A DNA stretch of 63,151 nt, filler included, from Reclinomonas americana ATCC 50394 (Eukaryota), in the NCBI GenBank assembly GCA_048213135.1. It is 4 parts of 2 records of this genome, joined end to end, with 100 filler letters (N's around TTAATTAATTAA, not from the genome) between each part and the next. Parts side by side here need not be neighbours in the genome. Positions count along the whole stretch, not along the records: positions 17,794 to 31,361 come from PS015103.1; 3 more parts are not named here. One strand, written 5' to 3'. Position 1 is the stretch's first letter. Every line of letters begins with the position of its first letter. The notes under the pieces are model-generated. The model was given only the letters and a program-made list of their open reading frames with translations, had not been told where the DNA came from and did no database searches. The position numbers and the translations under genes are program-made. Below are positions 19,410 through 56,356 of this stretch, piece after piece.

Positions 19410-22886
<3,477 letters not shown>

Positions 22887-22946
22887 ACAAGTAAACAATT
22901 CTTTCTTAGAGTATTAGAACAACAACAACACAACAGGTGACAATAA

Positions 22947-25255
22947 CTACAACGGGGTGGTGAGCGGCGACGGCTGCCCACTGCTGCTAGCCGACTCCGC
23001 GTCTGAGGCAGCGGAGGACGGCACTGTCAAAGCTTCCGAAGATTCACCCAGACGCAGCCGTCGACCCGCATGACGACGGCCGAGTGGAAGGTGACCCGTG
23101 GGTGCCTGCACAGAGGTCCGGCGCTTCCATTCACGGATGCTCTGCGGCTGTGAGTGGACGCGACAAAACACACGTGTCAGCGAGACATAAACCGGCAAGC
23201 TGCTTTCCCCGCGCGCGCACGCAACATCCAGCGCCCGCAGTGACGACACCGGAGAGGCGCCACCCAAACTGCCGTAGCTGGGTCGCACCTCCAGACCGCG
23301 CAGAGGCTCCAGATCCGATTGTGAAGCAGCACTGGGGCTCATGGCAATCGCGCCAAAGTTTGTCGAGGAGAGAACGGCGGTGCGCAACAACGTACGCTCA
23401 TTGTCTTCCGTCGCTGGACCGGCGGAGCTGTCGCTGCCGTCGCTGGCCGTGATGAGCGACGGGCCTATCGACTGCGGCAACGCAAACGATGACCCTGGCA
23501 TCGAGGCAACAGCGGCCGTCGTGAGCAACGGGGATGGAGTCGATTTGACCGGTGAGGGATTCGGCGGCGAAATGGTGGGGCCAGCAGATGGGGAGACAGC
23601 CTTGTGTGGCACAGAGGGGACGAGAGGAGAGGGAGTAACAGTCAGCACACGACGACACGGGGCCACAGTGTGAACGAATAAGCCTCACCGTCGACACCGT
23701 TGGCACTGGCTGCGTCAAACGAAACAGGTAGAGCAGGGTGATGGTCGGCACCACCTCCAGCATCATGTAGTACACGAACAGCTCGATGCTGCGGTTGGTA
23801 AGGTAATTGTCGCTGCTGTCCACGTCCAGCAGGATGATGATGATGCTCTCGCCCACCATCCACAGGCATCGCACGATAAATACCACCGAGCACAAAATCG
23901 TGGCCACCACGAATTCCTGCAGAGCGGGGGCGTGTGAGAGTCCAGCATCCACCAACAGCGACCTGCAAGCAGCGCAACTCGTAGTCGGCGAGCACGCGTG
24001 GCTGACACGGCATCCTTGTCGGACATGTAGCGATGCAGTCGCGTGCCGTACAGCACAAAGAGCACGGAGAACGTCACCGATACTGCATGTGAATCGAGAT
24101 GAGCACACATTGCGCATGGAAAGGAAGACGCCATCAACGCACCGGCAAAGACGAGGGCAATCGAAAATATGCGCTCCAGCCGAGCACCTGCATCCGTCGC
24201 CAGTAAGTCACCGAGCACCAACGCAGTGGGAGTGAAAGAGAATGTACACGCCGCAACTGAAATTGGCGAGAGCCATGGCCAGCCAGAACAAGCCGGTGAC
24301 GGCATAGGCGATCAACACCAGCATCCAAAACGTCAATCGAATCTTGTGCCGCATCGCCAGCGTGAGCTGCTTCTTCAGGTCGTGGTACAACTCGACCCAG
24401 AAGTAGCACAGCACAACATAGCACGAAAAGAAACACAGCGCCCCCACCCTACACGCATCACACAACAATGAGCGAGACAATCAACAAAAATGCTCCGTGA
24501 CCAAACGCAACGAGTTCATCACAAAGATGACATGGTTCGACTCGTTGAAATGCGTAAAGCGGAACTTGGCAAAGTTGACCACGCGCACTGCACATCAACT
24601 TAATTCTCTTTTTCCTCAACACCCCGCGCCACTACTCACAAACTCACCAATCATAAACAACAGCGCAATCACATGAAATAGCAACTGCACCGCAGGCGCA
24701 GTCGCCGCCCGCCTCTCCTCCAACAACGAGATGCTATCGTGTCCACTCGACATGCTCTGCGCATCGCCTCCCTCCACCAGTCCACTCGGTGTCACCTCAT
24801 TGCCCGCAGCGTCTTTCAGAGTCCCTCCCTGGCCTGTCTCTTGCTGCTCCACATCAGCAGTGTCTTTGCTCGACGACCCCTCAACGCCCTCGTATCGTTT
24901 CCGTCGCCTCCGAGGTCGATGTCGATGTCGACAGCAACAGCCGCGGCGACAGTGACAACATGAGAGCAGTGCGGAGCAGAGGAAGCAGGGAAGGCGAAGG
25001 CGGATCACTTGCACAGAGGTCCACAGGAGCATGAGAGCGTACACACCACAGCTGTGCGGAGAGAGAGTGGGAGAGAGAGAGAGAGCAAGACACATGAGTT
25101 CGGATCCCTGATAACATGCCATCATTCTCTCTCTCACTCACACGCGACTCTTTCTCTCACTCCCTCTCTCTCTCTGTTCGTCTATGTTCACGTTATATTG
25201 CACTCAACAGTGTGAGTCGAAGACACCGCCAGAGCGTTGTCTCATCATCGTCCAT
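22947..25255 (-). CDS. TOM1/THH1 (DUF1084)/GPR137-like multi-pass (7TM) membrane protein with Ser/Pro-rich cytoplasmic tail
   Basis: Seven hydrophobic segments after splicing, with LCFFSCYVVLCYFWVELYH, LFVLYGTRL, CSVVFIVRC and FVYYMMLEVVPTITLLYLFR, characteristic of this family. ATG at 25255. Confidence 0.7.
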
Positions 25256-25558: not shown

Positions 25559-28500
25559 CTACCGCCGCGCCGGTGGACCCACATACGTGTGGAATCCGTA
25601 TCCCTCGCCCGCATCCACACCCTCCACTCGCACGCGACACACTGGACATTCGCCGTTCTTGCTCACCAGCCGCTCCGCGCACTCCCGACACAGAACTTGG
25701 TGCATGCATGGACGCAGTCGCGTCTCGCGCAGCCCGTCGCACACCATGCACGCCCGTCGGCACGATAACACCGTCAGGTCGCTCAGCTCGCTCGCCAGCT
25801 GCTGTGCCGTCGGACGGCGTGCTGGACGACCATCCAGGCATCTGCAGATTGGCCATGTACGACAGTCAGCGTGTCTCCTCGCAACGCTCTCTTGGAAACA
25901 CACAAGGTACCTCAGTGCCAATCGCACAATCCTCTCACACACAGGAGCCGGCCACGGTCGACCTGCGCCACTATCAGCCAGATCCACCGCGGCGTCGAGC
26001 AGTGCTTCGCCATCGACGCCGTCAATGTCGTCCATCTCCTCCAGTGCCTCCACTCGCCGATGCACCTCCTCGATCGGCAGACCGCTGAACACTTGCAGGA
26101 GGACGAGACCGAGCGAGAACACATCCGAGCTCAGTCGCAGCTGGCCGTGCATGGCTTTGGGGTCGGCGTACTTTGGGTCGCCAGCAAAGTGCACTGACAA
26201 GTGCGTCTGTGGCACGAAGAAGGAGAGGGAAGGGATGAGGGGAGGAAAGGGGAAGGGAGAGACAGAACAGGAAAGTGTCACTCACCCCCTCGGTGCGGAA
26301 CCAGTGTGCCACTCCCAGGTCCGCGATGTATGCCATTCCACTGTGATTGAACAGAATGTTCGCTGGCTTCAGGTCGCGATGGATAACTGAGAGAGGGAGA
26401 GAAAGTGAGTGGAAGAAAATGGGCAAAGGACGGCGAACAGACACACGTACCATTCTGCGCATCCCGACAAGCGCACAGAAAGGCACGAGTGAGTCAACAA
26501 GGAGAGATATGAAGCAAACGCACACAGACAACACGCATGACATCTCTCACTCACATGCCTGCATCATCAGCAACGTGAGCCCGAAACCCATGAAGAAGGA
26601 AACAACAGACATGTGACACGCAACTTGTGCAGCGAAGCAACAGCTTCAGCACATCGCAGCATGCATGTCATTCGTGCCTCAATCGACATGGCCGGCAGTC
26701 CACGCTCCGCCCACTGCAGCAGTCGGTGCTCCAAGTTGTGCTCACTGCGAATCACGAAGGAGTGAGTGCACACGGAAGAGATGACACCCCCCACCCTCTC
26801 TCGGAAAAGACAAAGAGGCGTGCAGGTGATCATCGATCAAGCCAGACGGAAAGACAGAAAAACTGCATCTAGCACTGACGTTCTGCCTCATGCTCTCTCA
26901 TTAAGTCTTGTTCAACCCGCTTGCGTCCCTTACATCTCTGCTCGCCCTTTTCTCCTCACACGCACCTCATTGCCTCAAGCACCACACATCGCTTGCCGTC
27001 GTCCGACTCCGCAAACCCAATCAGCGGTACAACGCCAGCCACGCTCACCGCCTTGAGCTTCTCCAACTGAGATGCAAGCAAGGACGAGAATGAGAAGAAA
27101 ACAACCTCCTTCTCTCATCCTTCCCCCATCCACCACCCTCACCTCATTGGAGAACGACTCAATGCACCACGGCAGTGCGCTGTCAAACACCTTGATGGCC
27201 ACACTCTGTCCGGCCCACTGCCCACAAAACACCTTGCCCTGTCCACCATCACCTCCCAGTCGCTCCGCAAAATTGTTGCTCATCGACACCACTTGCTCCC
27301 ACGAAAATGCCGTCAACGGCGCTACATCGTCAACAAACAAAGTGAGTCTCCAGTCATCATCCTTCCTCCTTCCCCTCTTGCTGCTTCCACACATACCTCG
27401 GTGGGTGAGATCGCGCTGCACGGCGGCCAAATCAGCCTCGAGTCGTTGTGCTCGGTCATGCTCGCGCTGTCGCTGCTCGTCCACACGATCCAGCGCCTCC
27501 TGCAGCGCGGTACGCGCAGTTTCGTGCTGTTGGAGCGAGGCGGCATGCTCAGCAATAGTCGCTTCCTGCTGCTGCACGCGCTGCTCCCACTCGCTCATCT
27601 GTGCTTGCTGCTCGTCCAGTTGTCGCTGCAGTCCCGCCAACTGCTGTTGCACCCGCTGAACGGCTCCCTCCCTATCACGCTGAGCTGCCTCAACTTCCAG
27701 TCGCAGCTGAGCAGCGGTCTGTTCGTGGTGCTGCAATTGAGCCTGCCATTCGCTTGTCCGCTGCCGCTGTTCCTCCAGATCTTGCTGCAGCGCATCGAGC
27801 AGGGGCAGAGCTTGTCCTCTACCACCTCCTGCCTGGCCGACGGGGTCAGCCTGCCCGGCTGGTGCGCGGGAGGAGGCGGCGAGGGGAGAGGAAGGTGCTC
27901 CAGACGTCTGAGTTGACGCATGTAGCGTGAGAGATAGTGTCACACGAAGGAGAGGTCTGCGCGGCCATCAACGAAACTGATGATCCCGGGGACGAATGAA
28001 CAGCGTCGACAAACACTGCACAGATACGAAAGCGCGAAGCAAGTGAGTAAAAGGAGGCGGTGACCAGAGGAGACAAGGCACAAACTCACCGGCAGAAAAA
28101 GCGCCGGCCTGCTCCTGTTGCTCCTGCTTCTTCTTCTTCTTGTTCCTGTTCTTCGTCTTCTTCTTCTTCGCCTCCGTCTCATCTTCGTCGTCAAATACAT
28201 CGGATTCGGATAGTGACTGTGCTGCTGCTCCGCTGCGCCGAGCATTNNNNNNNNNNNNNNNNNNNNGTCAAGAGCGGCACGGATGTCCTCCAACTGCTTC
28301 CGATCGGCTCGCTTCGTGAGATACCGAGCACCAGACAGCCGCTCCTGCCTGGTCACGACATCGGTCATCAGGCGCTCTGCTTCCTCCAAATTCTCCACAC
28401 CACCGAGCTTGGACAGGTGGACCGCATGGGTTTGGCTGTATGAAAGCGTAGCTGAATGATCATCGCCAAAGTCCTCTCGTTGGAGTACGAGAAGTTCTCG

Positions 28501-30122: not shown

Positions 30123-33100
30123 TCATCGCCGCGGCGCCGGGAGACCCACATACGTGTGGAACCCGTATCCTTCGCCCGCATCCACACCCTCCACTCGCAC
30201 GCGACACACTGGACATTCGCCACTCTTGCTCACCAGCCGATCCGCGCACTCCCGACACAACACTTGGTGCATGCATGGACGCAGTCGCGTCTCGCGCAGC
30301 CCGTCGCACACCATGCACGCCCGCCGGCACGACAGCACCGTCAGGTCGCTCAGCTCGCTCGCCAGTTGCTGTGCCGTCGGACGGCGTGCTGGGCGGCCAT
30401 CCAGGCATCTGCAGATTGGTCAGTCAGCGTGTCTCCTCGCAACTCTCTCTTGGAAACACACTAGTACCTCAGTGCCAATCGCACAATCCTCTCACACACA
30501 GGAGCCGGCCACGGTCGACCTGCGCCACCGTCGGCCAGATCCACCGCGGCGTCGAGCAGTGCTTCGCCATCGACGCCATCAATGTCGTCCATCTCCTCCA
30601 GTGTCTCCACTCGCCGATGCACCTCCTCGATTGGCAGGCCGCTGAACACTTGCAGGAGGACGAGACCGAGCGAGAACACATCCGAACTCAGCCGCAGCTG
30701 GCCGTGCATGGCTTTGGGGTCGGCGTACTTTGGGTCGCCAGCAAAGTGAACAGACAAGTGCGTCTGTGGCACGAAGAAGGAGAGGGAAGGGATGAGGGGA
30801 GGAAAGGGGAAGGGAGTGACAGGGTAGGAAAGTGTCACTCACCCCCTCGGTGCGGAACCAGTGTGCCACTCCCAGGTCCGCGATGTAGGCCATTCCACTG
30901 TGGTTGAACAGAATGTTGGCTGGTTTCAGGTCGCGATGGATCACTGAGAGAGGGAGAGAAAGTGAGTGGAAGAAAATGGGCAAAGGACGGAGAACAGACA
31001 CACGTACCATTCTGCGAATGTCGAAAAGCGCACAGAAAGGCACGAGTTAGTTAACAAGGAGAGATATGAAGCAAACGCACACAGACAACACGCATGACAT
31101 CTCTCACTCACATGCCTGCATCATCAGCAAGAACAAAGTGAGTCCAAAAAGAATGGAGAACAACAACAGACAACGAGTCATGTGACACGCAACTTGTGCA
31201 GCGAAGCAACAGCCTCGGCACATCGCAGCATGCACGTCATTCGTGCCTCAATCGACATGGCCGGCAGTCCGCGCTCCGCCCACTGCAGCAGTCGGTGCTC
31301 CAAGTTGTGCTCACTGTGAAACACGAAGGAGTGAGTGCACATGAACAGATGACACCTCCCANNNNNNNNNNNNNNNNNNNNNNNNNNNNNNNNNNNNNNN
31401 NNNNNTTAATTAATTAANNNNNNNNNNNNNNNNNNNNNNNNNNNNNNNNNNNNNNNNNNNNCACCCTCTGCAGGGAACGACAAAGAGGCGTGCAGGTGAT
31501 CATCGATCAAGCCAGACGGAAAGACAGAAAAACTGCATCTAGCACTGACGTTCTGCCTCATGCTCTCTCATTAAGTCTTGCTCAACCCGCTTGCGTCCCT
31601 TATAACTTACATCTCTGCTGTTCTCCGACTGCCGCCCTTCGGCCTCTTCTCGTCACACTCACCTCATTGCCTCAAGCACCACACATCGCTTGCCGTCGTC
31701 CGACTCCGCAAACCCAATCAGCGGTACAACGCCAGCCACACTCACCGCCTTGAGCTTCTCCAACTGCGATGCAAGCAGAAAGAGAGTGTGTAAGAAGAGC
31801 AAATTTTCTCCTTCTCTCATCCTTCCCCCATCCACCACCCTCACCTCATTGGAGAACGACTCGATGCACCACGGCAGCGCACTGTCAAACACCTTGATGG
31901 CCACACTCTGTCCAGCCCACTGACCGCAGAACACCTTGCCCTGTCCACCATCACCGCCCAGTCGCTCCGCAAAGTTGTTGCTCATCGACACCACTTGCTC
32001 CCACGAGAATGCCGTCAACGGCGCTGCATTCATCAACAAGCAAACAATGTGAGTCTCCTTCCATCGCCAATCTTTCCCTTCCCCTCTTGCTGACGCACGC
32101 ACCTCGGTGGGTGAGGTCACGCTGCACGGCGGCCAAATCAGCCTCAAGTCGTTGTGCTCGGTCATGCTCGCGCTGTCGCTGCTCGTCCACACGATCCAGC
32201 GCCGCCTGCAGTGCAGCTCGCGCGGTTTCTTGTTGCTGGAGAGAGACGGCATGCTCAGCGATGGTCACCTCCTGGTGTTGCACATCCTGCTGCCACTCGC
32301 TCATCTGCGCTTGCTGCTCGTCCAGTTGTCGCTGCAATGCCGCCATCTGCTGTTGCATCCGCTGCATGGCTCCCTTCTGCTGCCGCACACGCTCCTGCCA
32401 TTCCCNNNNNNNNNNNNNNNNNNNNGCGCCGTCTTTTGATGTTCTTCCAATTTGCGCTCCTCTTCCGTCAGCTGCTGCTGCTCACGCTCTGCTGTTTGTT
32501 CCGCTTGCTGCATGCGCGAGTGCCACTCACTAGCCACCTGTCGCTGTTCTTGTAGAAGCACCTGCTGCTGCTGATGACAAGCCAGTTGCATAAGTGCGAA
32601 TCGACAACAGGACGATAAAGACAAGTCGCAACTGAGTCGGTTGCCACCGGCACGGGCGCGCTGGACTTGTCGCCACTCTTGCGTCCGCCGCGACGAGCAG
32701 CGTCGAGGGCCCCGCAAGCGCGATCAAAGGCAGCTTGAGCGGCCTTCGTTAGCGAGTTGTTGTTGCCGAATATGCGCCGGTGGCGCATCAGTGAGTCTTT
32801 CAACAGCGCAACGGCCAGCTCCATGTTGGCGACGTCGCCGGTGCGTGTGTACGCGGCGGCGAGACTGCGAATACCAGCCATGACGTCTTGCTGATCTCTG
32901 CAAGGCGCAGATTCAACTCGACGCAGCAGTTCGTTGCCGAATCGAATCGCCTCGTCGACCTTGCCAAGGGCCTCCAGCGCCTGCGTCAGGGCAGACAGTG
33001 TGGCCGCTATGTGGCGGTGATCGCGGGGCAGCACACGGTCCTGTCGCGTGAACGCATCTCGCAGCACTGGCAGCGCCTCCTCGTCGCGCTTCAGCTCGTG

Positions 33101-54350: not shown

Positions 54351-56356
54351 ACAGCAACAGCAACAACAACAACAAGAACACCAAAATGCCGATGCGCCGC
54401 ACAAGGTGGACGACAGCCTCGCCGCCCTGGACAACGCGGTGGATCGCATGGACGAATGGCGACAGCGTGAACGAGATCGAGCGCAGCGCTTGGAGGCGGA
54501 TCTGGAAGTCGTGCAGCGTCACTTTAGCCAGCGCGGTACGTGGATGGAGGCGCAATGGTGTTGAAAGGACAATCGCTCCAACTCATCCTGCCGTCTCTCC
54601 TCAGTATCTCTCTCGGCCTTTTCGTGGGATCAAGTGGTGCAGATGAGCAACAATTTTGCGCAGCACCTCGGTGGCGGTGGACAGGCGCGAGTCTTCAAGG
54701 GACACTGGGCCGGGCAAGATGTGGCGGTCAAGGTGTTTGACAGTGCGCTTCCGTGGTGCATCGAGTCGTTCTCCAATGAGGTGAGGCAGCAGCAGCAGAG
54801 AGCTGAGAGGAAACAATGTGGTGACGATTGGTTTCTCTCGTGTGCAGCTGGAGAAGCTCAAGGGCGTCAGTGTGGCTGGAGTTGTGCCACTGATTGGATT
54901 TGCCGAGTGTGCTGATGGCAAGCGATGTGTGGTACTGGAGGCGATGAGGTGCGTGGGAGGGAGAAGAGGAAGGAGAGAGAAGTGAGTTTCGACTTCACAA
55001 GGCGCACTTTTATGTTTTCCTGTCGTCTCGCCCATTGCGAGGGATTATGGAAAACGGAGAGATGCACTGCTCACGACCCGTTTCCCGAATGCTTAGTGAT
55101 CACAATCTGGAGCATCGGCTGTTGGAGTGGGAGAAGTACGGCTTGCCGGTCATGACGATCGAAGCGCGCATGTCGTGCATGCTGCGGTGTGCCGAGGCAG
55201 TGGCAGAGCTACACAAGTTGCACTGTGCTTGGAAAACTAGTCTTTTGCTGGTACCCGTCGACTAATCATTCTCTTGCTATGTGCGACAAATGCTTCTTCC
55301 AGTTTGGTGAGTGAGTGAGGGAGGGAGAGCGTGTGTATGTGTGCCTATTCTCTGTTTTTCCTANNNNNNNNNNNNNNNNNNNNNNNNNNNNNNNNNNNNN
55401 NNNNNNNNNNNNNNNNNNNNNNNNNNNNNNNNNNNNNNNNNNNNNNNNNNNNNNNNNNNNNNNNNNNNNNNNNNNNNNNNNNNNNNNNNNNNNNNNNNNN
55501 NNNNNNNNNNNNNNNNNNNNNNNNNNNNNNNNNNNNNNNNNNNNNNNNNNNNNNNNNNNNNNNNNNNNNNNNNNNNNNNNNNNNNNNNNNNNNNNNNNNN
55601 NNNNNNNNNNNNNNNNNNNNNNNNNNNNNNNNNNNNNNNNNNNNNNNNNNNNNNNNNNNNNNNNNNNNNNNNNNNNNNNNNNNNNNNNNNNNNNNNNNNN
55701 NNNNNNNNNNNNNNNNNNNNNNNNNNNNNNNNNNNNNNNNNNNNNNTCCTTTGTTGCTCACTGTTGCCAATTTTGCTGTGGCGTACTCGCTGTGCAGAAT
55801 GGTACGAAGACAACTGCATCGTGTCCATTCCTCTTCGTCTGCCAGTTGCTGACCTATTTTCCCTGCTGTTTCCAACAACAGTGATCCATCGCGACCTGAA
55901 GCCAGCCAACATTCTCTTCAACCACAGTGGAATGGCGTACATCTCGGACCTGGGGGTGGCGCACTGGTTCCGCACCGAGGGGGTGAGTGTCTCCTCTCAT
56001 TGCATGTCATTGTCTCCTTTTTCCCCCCTCACTCTTTCCCTTCCCTTCCTCTCGGCGTAGACACACGTGGCTGTTCACTTTGCTGGCGACCCAAAGTACG
56101 CCGACCCCAAGGCCATGCACGGCCAGCTGCGACCGAGTTCCGACGTGTTCTCTCTTGGTCTCGTCCTTCTGCAAGTATTCAGCGGCCTGCCGATCGAGGA
56201 GCTCCACCGGCGATTGGACGTGCTGGAGGAATTGGTGGAGAGCGACGAAGGTGACGAAGCCATGCTCGATGCAGCTGCTGCCGAGTTGGCCGACACGCGC
56301 GCCAACCACCTGTGGCCCGCTGATGTGTGCGGACGGATTGTGAGGCTTGCGCTTCG
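53267..56356 (+). CDS. TPR - polyQ/coiled coil - RLK/Pelle-like kinase, copy 3 (3' end, presumably RING, lost at the linker)
   Basis: Shorter intronless TPR block and polyQ at ~54317-54375. The kinase has HLGGGGQARVF, VAVK, HRDLKPANIL, DLG and GDPKYADP, with the same intron positions as copies 1 and 2. Microexons TTTG (55303-55306) and AATG (55798-55801). Confidence 0.85.

What the first reader, a model, noticed from the sequence alone, without database searches (positions are those of the whole stretch)
26387..26624. Two consecutive 4-nt microexons build the residues immediately before the kinase HRD motif, conserved in three paralogues
Copy 1 (-): CAC AA|GTTGCG...cag|GCAT|GTGAGT...cag|AATG|GTACGT...cag|TT ATC CAT CGC GAC reads LHKHNVIHRD (microexons 26555-26558 and 26451-26454). 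Copy 2 has the same exons at 31112-31115 and 31008-31011. The diverged copy 3 (+) has cag|TTTG|GTGAGT (55303-55306) and cag|AATG|GTACGA (55798-55801), giving LHNLNVIHRD. Length and splice signals are conserved although the flanking introns and the first microexon's sequence differ. With this donor, skipping either or both frameshifts the catalytic domain. Inference: this could act as a splicing-level on/off switch that yields a TPR-coiled-coil product lacking kinase and RING activity. Gene predictors would miss these exons.
Basis: partly seen in the sequence, partly recalled or inferred. Interest (0 to 1): 0.85.

Follow-up and report, generated by a model that had tools for sequence, protein, structure and literature searches.

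The report
Two tandem four-base exons in kinase genes
Three related kinase genes of an unidentified eukaryote most likely each contain two real exons only four bases long, back to back, that supply the residues just before the catalytic HRD motif; tiny exons like this are already known, and no RNA data could be found to prove these.

Summary
All six cag|NNNN|gt sites are at the stated coordinates.

The K3-K4 interval reads best as three complete short introns separated by two 4-nt coding exons.
- Each sub-intron is 64-100 nt and has its own CTNAY branch motif, 9 of 9.
- Copies 1 and 3 are far apart (dS 0.94, dN/dS 0.12) and their introns are randomised (51-53% identity). Even so, the longest shared words in the interval are GCAG|AATG|GTACG and GTGAGTGAG.
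- 0 of 5000 shuffles gave two such 4-nt sites.
- Only this model gives the same exon structure and a 5-residue LH-to-HRD spacing in all three copies. 47 relatives show 5 or more residues, never the 4 that the direct-splice rival gives in copies 1 and 2.

Weak points:
- No RNA run was listed.
- The first donor, GTTGCR, is poor.
- In copy 3 an in-frame direct splice scores equally well.

Constitutive 4-nt exons (human MPC1) and adjacent ultrashort exons (plants) are published. I rate this a new member of a known kind, confidence about 0.78.

The parts
26625..26744 (-). Copy 1 exon K3 (120 nt; kinase helix E, ends ...SLH + AA of the next codon)
   Evidence: The acceptor is tcgcag|T. The exon is 120 nt in all three copies, and copy 1 and copy 3 share 89 of 120 positions.
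26559..26624 (-). Copy 1 sub-intron A (66 nt; weak donor GTTGCG, CTCAC 17 nt from its AG)
   Evidence: If retained, it reads in frame into a TGA stop, as the sequence shows directly.
26555..26558 (-). Copy 1 microexon 1, GCAT
   Evidence: cag|GCAT|gtgagt.
26455..26554 (-). Copy 1 sub-intron B (100 nt; donor GTGAGT, CTCAC 35 nt from its AG)
26451..26454 (-). Copy 1 microexon 2, AATG
   Evidence: It lies inside the 13-nt word GCAGAATGGTACG, which is shared exactly with copy 3.
26387..26450 (-). Copy 1 sub-intron C (64 nt; donor GTACGT, CTCAC 19 nt from its AG, 95% pyrimidine tract)
26286..26386 (-). Copy 1 exon K4 (101 nt; (V)IHRDLKPANILF...ADLG...TEG, catalytic loop)
   Evidence: Pkinase PF00069, E 2.1e-7, 31.0 bits for this exon alone (curated cutoff 31.7); residue 1 aligns to profile position 120; matches to PDB kinases.
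31194..31313 (-). Copy 2 exon K3
   Evidence: Copy 1 and copy 2 share 116 of 120 positions.
31116..31193 (-). Copy 2 sub-intron A (78 nt, donor GTTGCG)
   Evidence: It is only 67% identical to copy 1 and has indels, but both ends are kept.
31112..31115 (-). Copy 2 microexon 1, GCAT
31012..31111 (-). Copy 2 sub-intron B (100 nt)
31008..31011 (-). Copy 2 microexon 2, AATG
30944..31007 (-). Copy 2 sub-intron C (64 nt)
30843..30943 (-). Copy 2 exon K4 (HRD exon, starts TG ATC)
55097..55216 (+). Copy 3 exon K3 (120 nt, ends ...ELH + AA)
55217..55302 (+). Copy 3 sub-intron A (86 nt, donor GTTGCA, CTAAT 37 nt from its AG)
55303..55306 (+). Copy 3 microexon 1, TTTG (all four bases differ from copies 1 and 2; the length is kept)
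55307..55797 (+). Copy 3 sub-intron B (491 positions, of which 383 are an N gap; donor GTGAGT, CTCAC 37 nt from its AG)
55798..55801 (+). Copy 3 microexon 2, AATG
55802..55881 (+). Copy 3 sub-intron C (80 nt, donor GTACGA, CTGAC 29 nt from its AG)
55882..55982 (+). Copy 3 exon K4 (HRD exon)
   Evidence: Copy 1 and copy 3 share 93 of 101 positions.

Best explanation
In each of three paralogous TPR / coiled-coil / protein-kinase / RING genes, the stretch between the helix-E exon (...LH) and the catalytic-loop exon (IHRD...) is three complete short spliceosomal introns, not one intron. They are separated by two constitutive 4-nt coding exons.

The 8 extra bases, together with split codons on both sides, encode K-H-N-V in copies 1 and 2 and N-L-N-V in copy 3. 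This gives the canonical 5-residue LH-x5-HRD spacing.

Shown by sequence: the splice signals, intron anatomy, frame and conservation.

Inferred:
- The exons are included in the main mRNA.
- A 4-nt exon cannot hold a 3' splice-site complex and a U1 complex at once, so the three introns are removed one after another. The likely order is downstream first (C, then B, then A). Each microexon is then first fused to a long exon, and the weak first donor is used last.
For: (1) Signals. Both microexons carry cag acceptors and GTGAGT or GTACG(T/A) donors in all three copies.

(2) Intron anatomy.
- 9 of 9 sub-introns have a CTNAY motif 17-37 nt from their own AG, against 6 of 7 ordinary introns of the same genes.
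- Sub-intron sizes of 64-100 nt match the ordinary introns of 67-221 nt.

(3) Selection.
- Copy 1 versus copy 3 gives dS 0.94 and dN/dS 0.12 over 264 codons.
- Their introns are 51-53% identical, and 66% for I4.
- The two longest words shared in the K3-K4 interval are the 13-mer GCAG|AATG|GTACG and the 9-mer GTGAGTGAG after microexon 1.
- Ordinary introns share at most 6-7 nt at donors, or a 10-nt CT run.
- Microexon 1 changed at 4 of 4 bases but kept its length.

(4) Chance. 0 of 5000 shuffles gave two ordered 4-nt sites, and 2 of 5000 gave any frame-compatible pair.

(5) Consistency. Of the paths enumerated by hand and, this is the only one that uses the same donor and exons in all three copies.

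(6) Protein comparison.
- In 47 of 48 relatives' kinase domains that have the helix-E His, the spacing to HRD is 5 residues or more (14 have exactly 5) and never 4.
- An HMM built from those 48 domains scores copy 1 at 209.3 bits with the microexons, against 202.2-205.2 for four other in-frame paths.
- Pairwise, 36 of 48 relatives prefer the microexon form to the direct C|GTGTCA form, 10 prefer the reverse and 2 tie.
- The best-scoring relatives (Closterium) read IH-A-H-K/N-F/I-I/V-HRD.

(7) Precedent. A constitutive 4-bp exon is published for human MPC1, with others in TNNI1, KSR1 and TMEM237 (PMC9929638, passages). Adjacent 5+12-nt exons are published in plants (PMC8831610 and PMC11096116, passages).
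Against: - The model is untested against any transcript.
- The first donor (AA|GTTGCG, or GTTGCA in copy 3) departs from the GT[AG][AC]G form of every other donor in these genes.
- In-frame direct paths exist in every copy. In copy 3 the direct T|GTGCTT path scores as well as the microexon path: 182.6 versus 181.3 bits, and 22 versus 19 of 48 relatives with 7 ties.
- The protein-level advantage in copy 1 is modest (4-7 bits).
- The linker length varies from 5 to 44 residues in this family.
- Only three paralogues from one window were available. No orthologue and no genome were at hand.
- Part of the relatives' sequences are themselves gene predictions.
Confidence: 0.78

Rival explanations
1. 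There is one ordinary intron of about 230 nt, longer in copy 3. It is spliced from a donor a few bases downstream (C|GTGTCA in copies 1 and 2, T|GTGCTT in copy 3) straight to the HRD exon. The products would be LHKLLIHRD and LHKLHLIHRD. The cag-N4-gt sites would then be unused relics or decoys.
For: - Both paths are in frame and free of stops.
- In copy 3 this path scores slightly higher than the microexon path, 182.6 versus 181.3 bits.
- The microexon model needs a poor first donor.
- A strong-looking cag|AGAT|gtaag site that cannot be an exon sits in the K2-K3 intron of copies 1 and 2, so such sites do arise without function.
Against: - The two donors are at different positions, and copy 3 has no GT at the copy 1 position. 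They give different protein lengths in the paralogues.
- The 4-residue linker of copies 1 and 2 occurs in 0 of 47 relatives. It scores 7.1 bits lower, and 36 of 48 relatives prefer the microexon form.
- This model does not explain why the microexon signals and their exact 4-nt spacing survive at dS 0.94 in otherwise randomised introns.
- It does not explain why each sub-interval has its own branch motif, 9 of 9.
- These donors (GTGTCA, GTGCTT) are no better than GTTGCR.
Confidence: 0.12
2. The microexons are real but regulated. Inclusion gives the active kinase-RING protein. Skipping gives a frameshifted message, so splicing acts as an on/off gate, either through a truncated TPR-coiled-coil protein or through mRNA decay.
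For: - Skipping one or both microexons from the AA|GT donor shifts the frame.
- Three closely spaced, sterically interfering introns with a weak first donor could be kinetically fragile. This is inference.
- Introns next to plant microexons are often detained (PMC8831610, passages).
Against: - There are no expression data of any kind.
- Single-skip forms stop a few codons after the junction, which typically marks a message for decay rather than for a stable product. This rests on established knowledge of nonsense-mediated decay and was not tested here.
- The examined human non-3n microexons are constitutive even under decay inhibition (PMC9929638, passages).
- Regulated microexon programmes described so far mostly use 3n exons (abstracts listed).
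Confidence: 0.08
3. The three genes are decaying or unexpressed pseudogenes, and no splicing model matters.
For: - They are tandem or dispersed duplicates in a gap-rich draft region.
- No homologous protein from this lineage is in the collections searched.
Against: - dN/dS is 0.12 over 264 codons between copies 1 and 3.
- Under the microexon model the copy 1 kinase-RING part (377 residues) has no stop, and it aligns end to end with relatives at 209 bits.
- The VAIK, HRD, N and D(L)G residues are present.
Confidence: 0.02

Closest known systems
Constitutive 4-bp microexon of human MPC1, with others in TNNI1, KSR1 and TMEM237 (PMC9929638, abstract and passages read)
   Same: It is a 4-nt coding exon whose length is not a multiple of three, and loss of it shifts the frame. 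Its proximal intron flanks are conserved across species, and short proximal splice signals are sufficient for inclusion.
   Different: Those are single microexons flanked by long vertebrate introns and were proven by RT-PCR. Here two lie back to back, separated by a 100-nt intron, in a short-intron protist-like genome. RNA proof is lacking here.
Adjacent 5-nt and 12-nt microexons of a Peptidase M1 gene in rice, Zygnema and land plants (PMC8831610 and PMC11096116, passages read)
   Same: These are two neighbouring ultrashort coding exons. They are conserved, encode part of a domain and are missed by gene annotation. They are attributed to stepwise intron gain.
   Different: The sizes and gene family differ. 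Those were verified by RNA-seq and RT-PCR and traced over many species. Here both exons are 4 nt, and the evidence comes from three paralogues only.
Single-nucleotide exons: Arabidopsis APC11 (PMC4674806, passages), plant VPS55 (PMC8831610, passages), Fusarium CYP621A (PMC12940212, abstract in the search listing only)
   Same: They are constitutive exons far too short for exon definition. The APC11 authors propose removal of the two flanking introns one after the other.
   Different: They are shorter and single. The sequential-removal model is likewise only a hypothesis there.
Microexons of 1-15 nt in Chlamydomonas reinhardtii, where Pkinase is the top domain they encode (PMC8831610, passage read)
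   Same: Ultrashort exons lie inside protein-kinase domains of a unicellular eukaryote.
   Different: I saw no individual example, and the paper's supplements are closed. No claim of homology is possible.
Zero-length recursive splice sites (AG|GT ratchet points) of Drosophila and vertebrates, as cited and discussed in PMC4674806 and in listings
   Same: One gap between two long exons is removed stepwise, through internal acceptor-donor pairs.
   Different: Recursive sites leave nothing in the mRNA. Here 4 nt must stay at each site to keep the frame.
SRRM4-dependent neuronal microexons of animals (PMC10250204, passages; abstracts)
   Same: Steric hindrance at very short exons, strong donors and downstream-intron-first splicing are discussed there.
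   Different: Those are tissue-regulated and mostly 3n in length, and they depend on an animal-specific factor. Nothing here indicates regulation.

Membership tests
Ultrashort (15 nt or less) internal coding microexon | An internal exon of 15 nt or less, bounded by an AG acceptor and a GT donor of two separate spliceosomal introns | tested here: met
   cag|N4|gt(g/a)(a/c)g is present at six sites. Each flanking sub-intron is 64-100 nt and has its own CTNAY motif, 9 of 9.
Ultrashort (15 nt or less) internal coding microexon | Presence of the exon in mature mRNA | not testable with these tools
   No RNA run was listed for the locus. No genome or annotation is held. No protein from this lineage is in the collections.
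Ultrashort (15 nt or less) internal coding microexon | The exon is needed to keep the frame and to complete a conserved protein motif | tested here: met
   With the shared donor, omission of either exon shifts the frame. Inclusion gives the 5-residue LH-to-HRD spacing seen as the minimum in 47 relatives and the best HMM score in copy 1. Caveat: in-frame bypass donors exist, and copy 3 is not discriminated.
Ultrashort (15 nt or less) internal coding microexon | Conservation of the exon length and flanking signals among homologues | tested here: met
   The structure is the same in three paralogues. Between copies 1 and 3 (dS 0.94) the flanks are the longest conserved words of the interval.
Ultrashort (15 nt or less) internal coding microexon | Strong splice signals compensating for the short exon | tested here: inconclusive
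   The donors after both microexons are the best in the gene (GTGAGT, GTACGT). The donor of the first sub-intron (GTTGCR) is the weakest, and two acceptor tracts are only 50% pyrimidine. No organism-specific splice model could be built.
Regulated (switch-like) alternative microexon | Variable inclusion between conditions or cell types | not testable with these tools
   No RNA data.
Regulated (switch-like) alternative microexon | Both isoforms are productive (length usually a multiple of three) | tested here: not met
   Each exon is 4 nt. Skip forms carry 4-6 stop codons.
Zero-length recursive splice site | Acceptor AG directly abutting donor GT, with nothing retained | tested here: not met
   Four bases lie between AG and GT at all six sites, and they are needed for the frame.
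Protein kinase domain (Pfam PF00069), IRAK/receptor-like-kinase-like branch with C-terminal RING | Match to the kinase profile, with the VAIK Lys, HRD Asp, catalytic Asn and DxG Asp present | tested here: met
   - The HRD exon alone matches Pkinase at E 2.1e-7 and 31.0 bits, just under the curated 31.7.
- The spliced domain scores 209 bits against an HMM of 48 relatives' domains.
- VAIK, HRD, N and DLG are present in the translation.
- RING zf-C3HC4_3 matches at 36.2 bits, above its cutoff of 27.
- The branch name is my reading of the relatives' motifs. It was not tested with a tree.

The most novel reading that the evidence does not exclude
Three spliceosomal introns packed into 10 nt of coding sequence, with two successive 4-nt exons, would force a strict order of intron removal. 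That order could serve as a kinetic gate. Any mis-step gives a frameshifted, decay-prone message, so the output of a duplicated TPR-kinase-RING signalling family would be tuned at the splicing step. It would also be the tightest tandem pair of non-3n exons that I could find described. Three full-text searches found no report of two consecutive exons of 4 nt or less.
Probability: 0.12. Interest if true: 0.7.

Novelty: new member of a known kind. Interest (0 to 1): 0.4.

Why it matters
If confirmed, these genes add a compact natural example of two back-to-back 4-nt exons to the short list of ultrashort constitutive exons.

- They would make a useful test case for how intron-defined spliceosomes order their work when simultaneous assembly is sterically impossible.
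- They would also be a test case for gene finders, which would otherwise call a shortened or shifted catalytic loop in a whole kinase family.
- The practical lesson is for annotation. When the helix-E-to-HRD linker of a kinase comes out one residue short, or the frame breaks, the intron should be searched for cag-N-gt islands.

This does not open a new kind of biology. Exons of 1 to 5 nt, adjacent microexons and microexons inside kinase domains are all in print.

Tried and rejected
- RNA evidence: no RNA holder was listed for window:25500-28000.
- Own genome: none is held.
- Close relatives or transcript-derived proteins:
  - The word-index search with the C-lobe+RING exon (longer proteins) found none.
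  - The same search with exon K3 found only 1 candidate, and none scored.
  - The search with a TPR exon returned 58 listed hits of 25-40% identity, mostly metagenomic TPR proteins.
  - The full HMMER scan found 319 hits at E of 0.001 or better, but the best was only 69 bits at 38% identity. No orthologue was available to show the junction.
- Metagenome loci: the K5 exon matched nothing related. The HRD exon was too short for the tool. The K1 exon gave one locus, L001, an unrelated kinase fragment with no HRD motif in any forward frame (only those three were scanned).
- Exon K3 alone gave no Pfam hit and no PDB hit, so profile coordinates could not be used to count the missing residues directly.
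- Origin by tandem duplication or a shared mobile intron: sub-introns A, B and C of copy 1 show no similarity beyond shuffles (p about 0.28, 0.35 and 0.76 from 300 shuffles each). Rejected for lack of signal.
- Other in-frame paths in copy 1 score lower and have no counterpart donor in copy 3: CGT|GTCACA plus one microexon, and T|GTCTGT direct.
- Retention of sub-intron A (66 and 78 nt, both multiples of three) runs into a TGA stop, as the sequence shows directly. Retention of B or C shifts the frame.
- Rfam scan of the window: no match.
- Earlier notes of this scan: nothing for this genome or sequence.
- The organism could not be identified.
Full report
**What is there**

The window is gap-rich eukaryotic DNA (22 N runs, 4380 N). 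GC per 2-kb bin is 32-61%, and 54-61% across the gene copies. No genome is held for it, and I could not identify the organism.

It carries three copies of a gene for a protein with four parts:
- TPR_12/TPR_10 repeats
- a coiled coil
- a protein kinase domain
- a C-terminal RING finger (zf-C3HC4_3, 36.2 bits)

Copies 1 and 2 lie in tandem on the minus strand. Copy 3 lies about 25 kb away on the plus strand. Only three HRD exons exist in the window.

**Check of the observation**

All strings and coordinates in the finding are right. In copy 1:
- Exon K3 (26744-26625) ends CAC AA.
- A 66-nt segment follows, starting GTTGCG and ending cag.
- GCAT follows (26558-26555).
- A 100-nt segment runs from GTGAGT to cag.
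- AATG follows (26454-26451).
- A 64-nt segment runs from GTACGT to cag.
- The HRD exon K4 starts at 26386.

Copy 2 has the same layout (31115-31112 and 31011-31008). Copy 3 has TTTG (55303-55306) and AATG (55798-55801), with a 383-N gap in the middle segment.

Joined by coordinates, the message reads LHKHNVIHRD in copy 1 and LHNLNVIHRD in copy 3. Under this model the copy 1 kinase-RING part (377 residues) has no stop. Leaving out one or both 4-nt pieces shifts the frame.

**Is it chance?**

The strict pattern CAG-N4-GT[AG][AC]G occurs 20 times on both strands of the window, and six of those are these sites. For spacings of 0 to 15 nt the counts run from 5 to 20.

Of 5000 dinucleotide shuffles of the copy 1 interval:
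- 61 had one such 4-nt site.
- None had two in order.
- 2 had any frame-compatible pair of 1-12-nt sites.

A control shows that single sites do arise by accident. A cag|AGAT|gtaag site sits in the K2-K3 intron of copies 1 and 2. It cannot be an exon, because K2 and K3 already join in frame, and copy 3 lacks it.

**Anatomy**

Each of the nine sub-intervals looks like a whole intron.
- Sizes are 66/100/64 nt in copy 1, 78/100/64 in copy 2 and 86/gap/80 in copy 3. The ordinary introns of the same genes are 67-221 nt.
- 9 of 9 sub-introns have a CTNAY branch-type motif 17-37 nt from their own AG, as do 6 of 7 ordinary introns.
- The donors after the microexons (GTGAGT, GTACGT/GTACGA) are as good as the best ordinary ones.
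- The first donor, GTTGCG or GTTGCA, is the one poor signal, although it is conserved in all three copies.

**Conservation**

Copies 1 and 3 are old duplicates under purifying selection: dS 0.94, dN 0.11 and dN/dS 0.12 over 264 codons.

Their introns align at 51-53% identity (I4 at 66%), which is essentially random. Even so, the longest word shared in the K3-K4 interval is the 13-mer GCAG|AATG|GTACG. The second longest is GTGAGTGAG, directly after microexon 1. The ordinary introns share only 6-7 nt at their donors, or a 10-nt CT run.

Microexon 1 differs at all four bases between the lineages (GCAT versus TTTG) but keeps its length and flanks. That pattern is expected if length and signals are selected while the two encoded surface residues are free.

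Copies 1 and 2 are a mosaic. Exons are 95-99% identical and sub-introns B and C 94-98%, but sub-intron A is only 67% identical and has indels. Both ends of A are kept.

**Protein-level test**

No close relative exists in the collections.
- The full HMMER scan with the last exons found 319 proteins at E of 0.001 or better. The best was 69 bits at 38% identity, a Closterium protein.
- Word searches found nothing nearer.

From the 150 listed representatives I cut 48 kinase-domain segments that had an HRD-type motif and enough flank. Representatives without the motif, or truncated ones, were left out, and some proteins gave two or three segments.

In the alignment, 47 of 48 segments have the helix-E histidine. 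The number of residues between it and HRD is 5 in 14 of them, 7-14 in 32 and 44 in one. It is never 4.

An HMM of the 48 segments scores copy 1 as follows:

| Path in copy 1 | Bits |
|---|---|
| Both microexons | 209.3 |
| T\|GTCTGT direct | 205.2 |
| CGT\|GTCACA + microexon 2 | 204.3 |
| CGT\|GTCACA + microexon 1 | 203.7 |
| C\|GTGTCA direct (4-residue linker) | 202.2 |
| Frameshifted skip forms | about 75 |

Pairwise, 36 of 48 segments prefer the microexon form to the C|GTGTCA form, 10 prefer the reverse and 2 tie. The microexon form is the sole best of five in-frame forms for 29 of 48.

The best-scoring relatives read IH-A-H-K-F-I-HRD and IH-A-H-N-I-V-HRD, close to the LH-K-H-N-V-I-HRD predicted here.

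Against my reading, copy 3 is not discriminated. Its direct T|GTGCTT path also gives 5 residues. It scores 182.6 against 181.3 bits, and 22 relatives prefer it against 19, with 7 ties.

**Weighing the models**

The microexon path is the only one found that uses the same donor, the same exons and the same protein length in all three copies. The bypass donors sit at different positions. Copy 3 has no GT where copies 1 and 2 have C|GT, and the bypass paths give linkers of different length.

The bypass model also leaves two things unexplained: the conserved islands, and the three sets of branch motifs.

I put the microexon model at about 0.78. The single-intron model gets 0.12, a regulated gate as the main function 0.08, and pseudogenes 0.02. 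The model is untested against any transcript. No RNA run could be listed. Two metagenome scans gave no related locus.

**How it most likely works (inferred)**

A 4-nt exon cannot carry a 3' splice-site complex and a U1 complex at the same time. This steric argument is made for short exons in PMC10250204 and PMC4674806 (passages read).

With 64-100-nt introns, recognition is presumably across each intron. Removal must then be sequential.

A downstream-first order (C, then B, then A) fits three features:
- the very strong tract of C (95% pyrimidine)
- the strong donors after both microexons
- the weak first donor, which would act last from a long upstream exon

[quoted passage not shown] PMC8831610 reports delayed upstream introns in plants. 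The order was not tested here.

**Comparison with what is known**

- Constitutive 4-bp exons are established in human MPC1, with further ones in TNNI1, KSR1 and TMEM237 (PMC9929638).
- One-nucleotide exons are established in APC11 and VPS55 (PMC4674806, PMC8831610). One in Fusarium CYP621A I saw only as an abstract (PMC12940212).
- Adjacent 5+12-nt exons are established in a Peptidase M1 gene of plants and Zygnema (PMC8831610, PMC11096116).
- In Chlamydomonas, Pkinase is the top domain encoded by 1-15-nt exons (PMC8831610).

Three full-text searches turned up no report of two consecutive exons of 4 nt or less.

Earlier notes of this scan mention a 2-nt exon and a 6-nt kinase exon in Naegleria. 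I treat these as leads only.

The frameshift on skipping is correct. Nothing supports a regulated switch or a useful truncated protein.

**Verdict**

It is an ordinary kind of thing in an unusually compact form, and it awaits one RT-PCR.

Noticed in passing
window 26934-26937 (-) and 31611-31614 (-): A cag|AGAT|gtaag site with good-looking signals sits inside the K2-K3 intron of copies 1 and 2. It cannot be an exon, because K2 and K3 already join in frame, and copy 3 lacks it. It is a useful negative control for microexon hunting.
   Followed up: partly
window 26150-27250 vs 30700-31850 (-): Copies 1 and 2 are a mosaic. Exons are 95-99% identical and sub-introns B, C and intron I4 94-98%. Introns I1 and I2 are 76% identical and sub-intron A 67%, with indels. 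This suggests a gene-conversion tract that starts near microexon 1.
   Followed up: no
window 26611-26624, 31180-31193 (-); 55217-55226 (+): Every copy has an in-frame bypass donor a few bases inside sub-intron A (C|GTGTCA or T|GTGCTT) that would skip both microexons without breaking the frame. These could be used as minor alternative 5' splice sites.
   Followed up: partly
window 25842-25910 (-): A 69-nt intron (GTACCT...ctgcag) between kinase subdomain XI and the RING exon reads through in frame in copy 1, so the 240-aa ORF 25559-26281 looks like one exon. In copy 2 the same spot ends the ORF.
   Followed up: partly
window 20500-22900 (+) and 23398-24207 (-): The neighbouring genes are an ankyrin-repeat gene split over several frames (Ank_5, E 1.3e-7) and an ORF with a weak THH1/TOM1-3 domain match (24.8 bits, cutoff 25).
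   Followed up: no
window 19460-20110: A long (GA)n/(CT)n microsatellite flanks a 105-N gap. It reads as ERERER and SLSLSL in the ORF list.
   Followed up: no
window, whole: The window is a draft assembly with 22 N runs totalling 4380 N. Several are exactly 20 or 44 N, inside the TPR and coiled-coil exons of all three copies, and these break their ORFs artificially.
   Followed up: no
L001:4001-4063: The only metagenome locus recovered shares a GGQGKVF..AVAIK glycine-loop stretch (67% over 21 residues). It shows no HRD motif in any forward frame (only those three were scanned) and is not a relative.
   Followed up: partly
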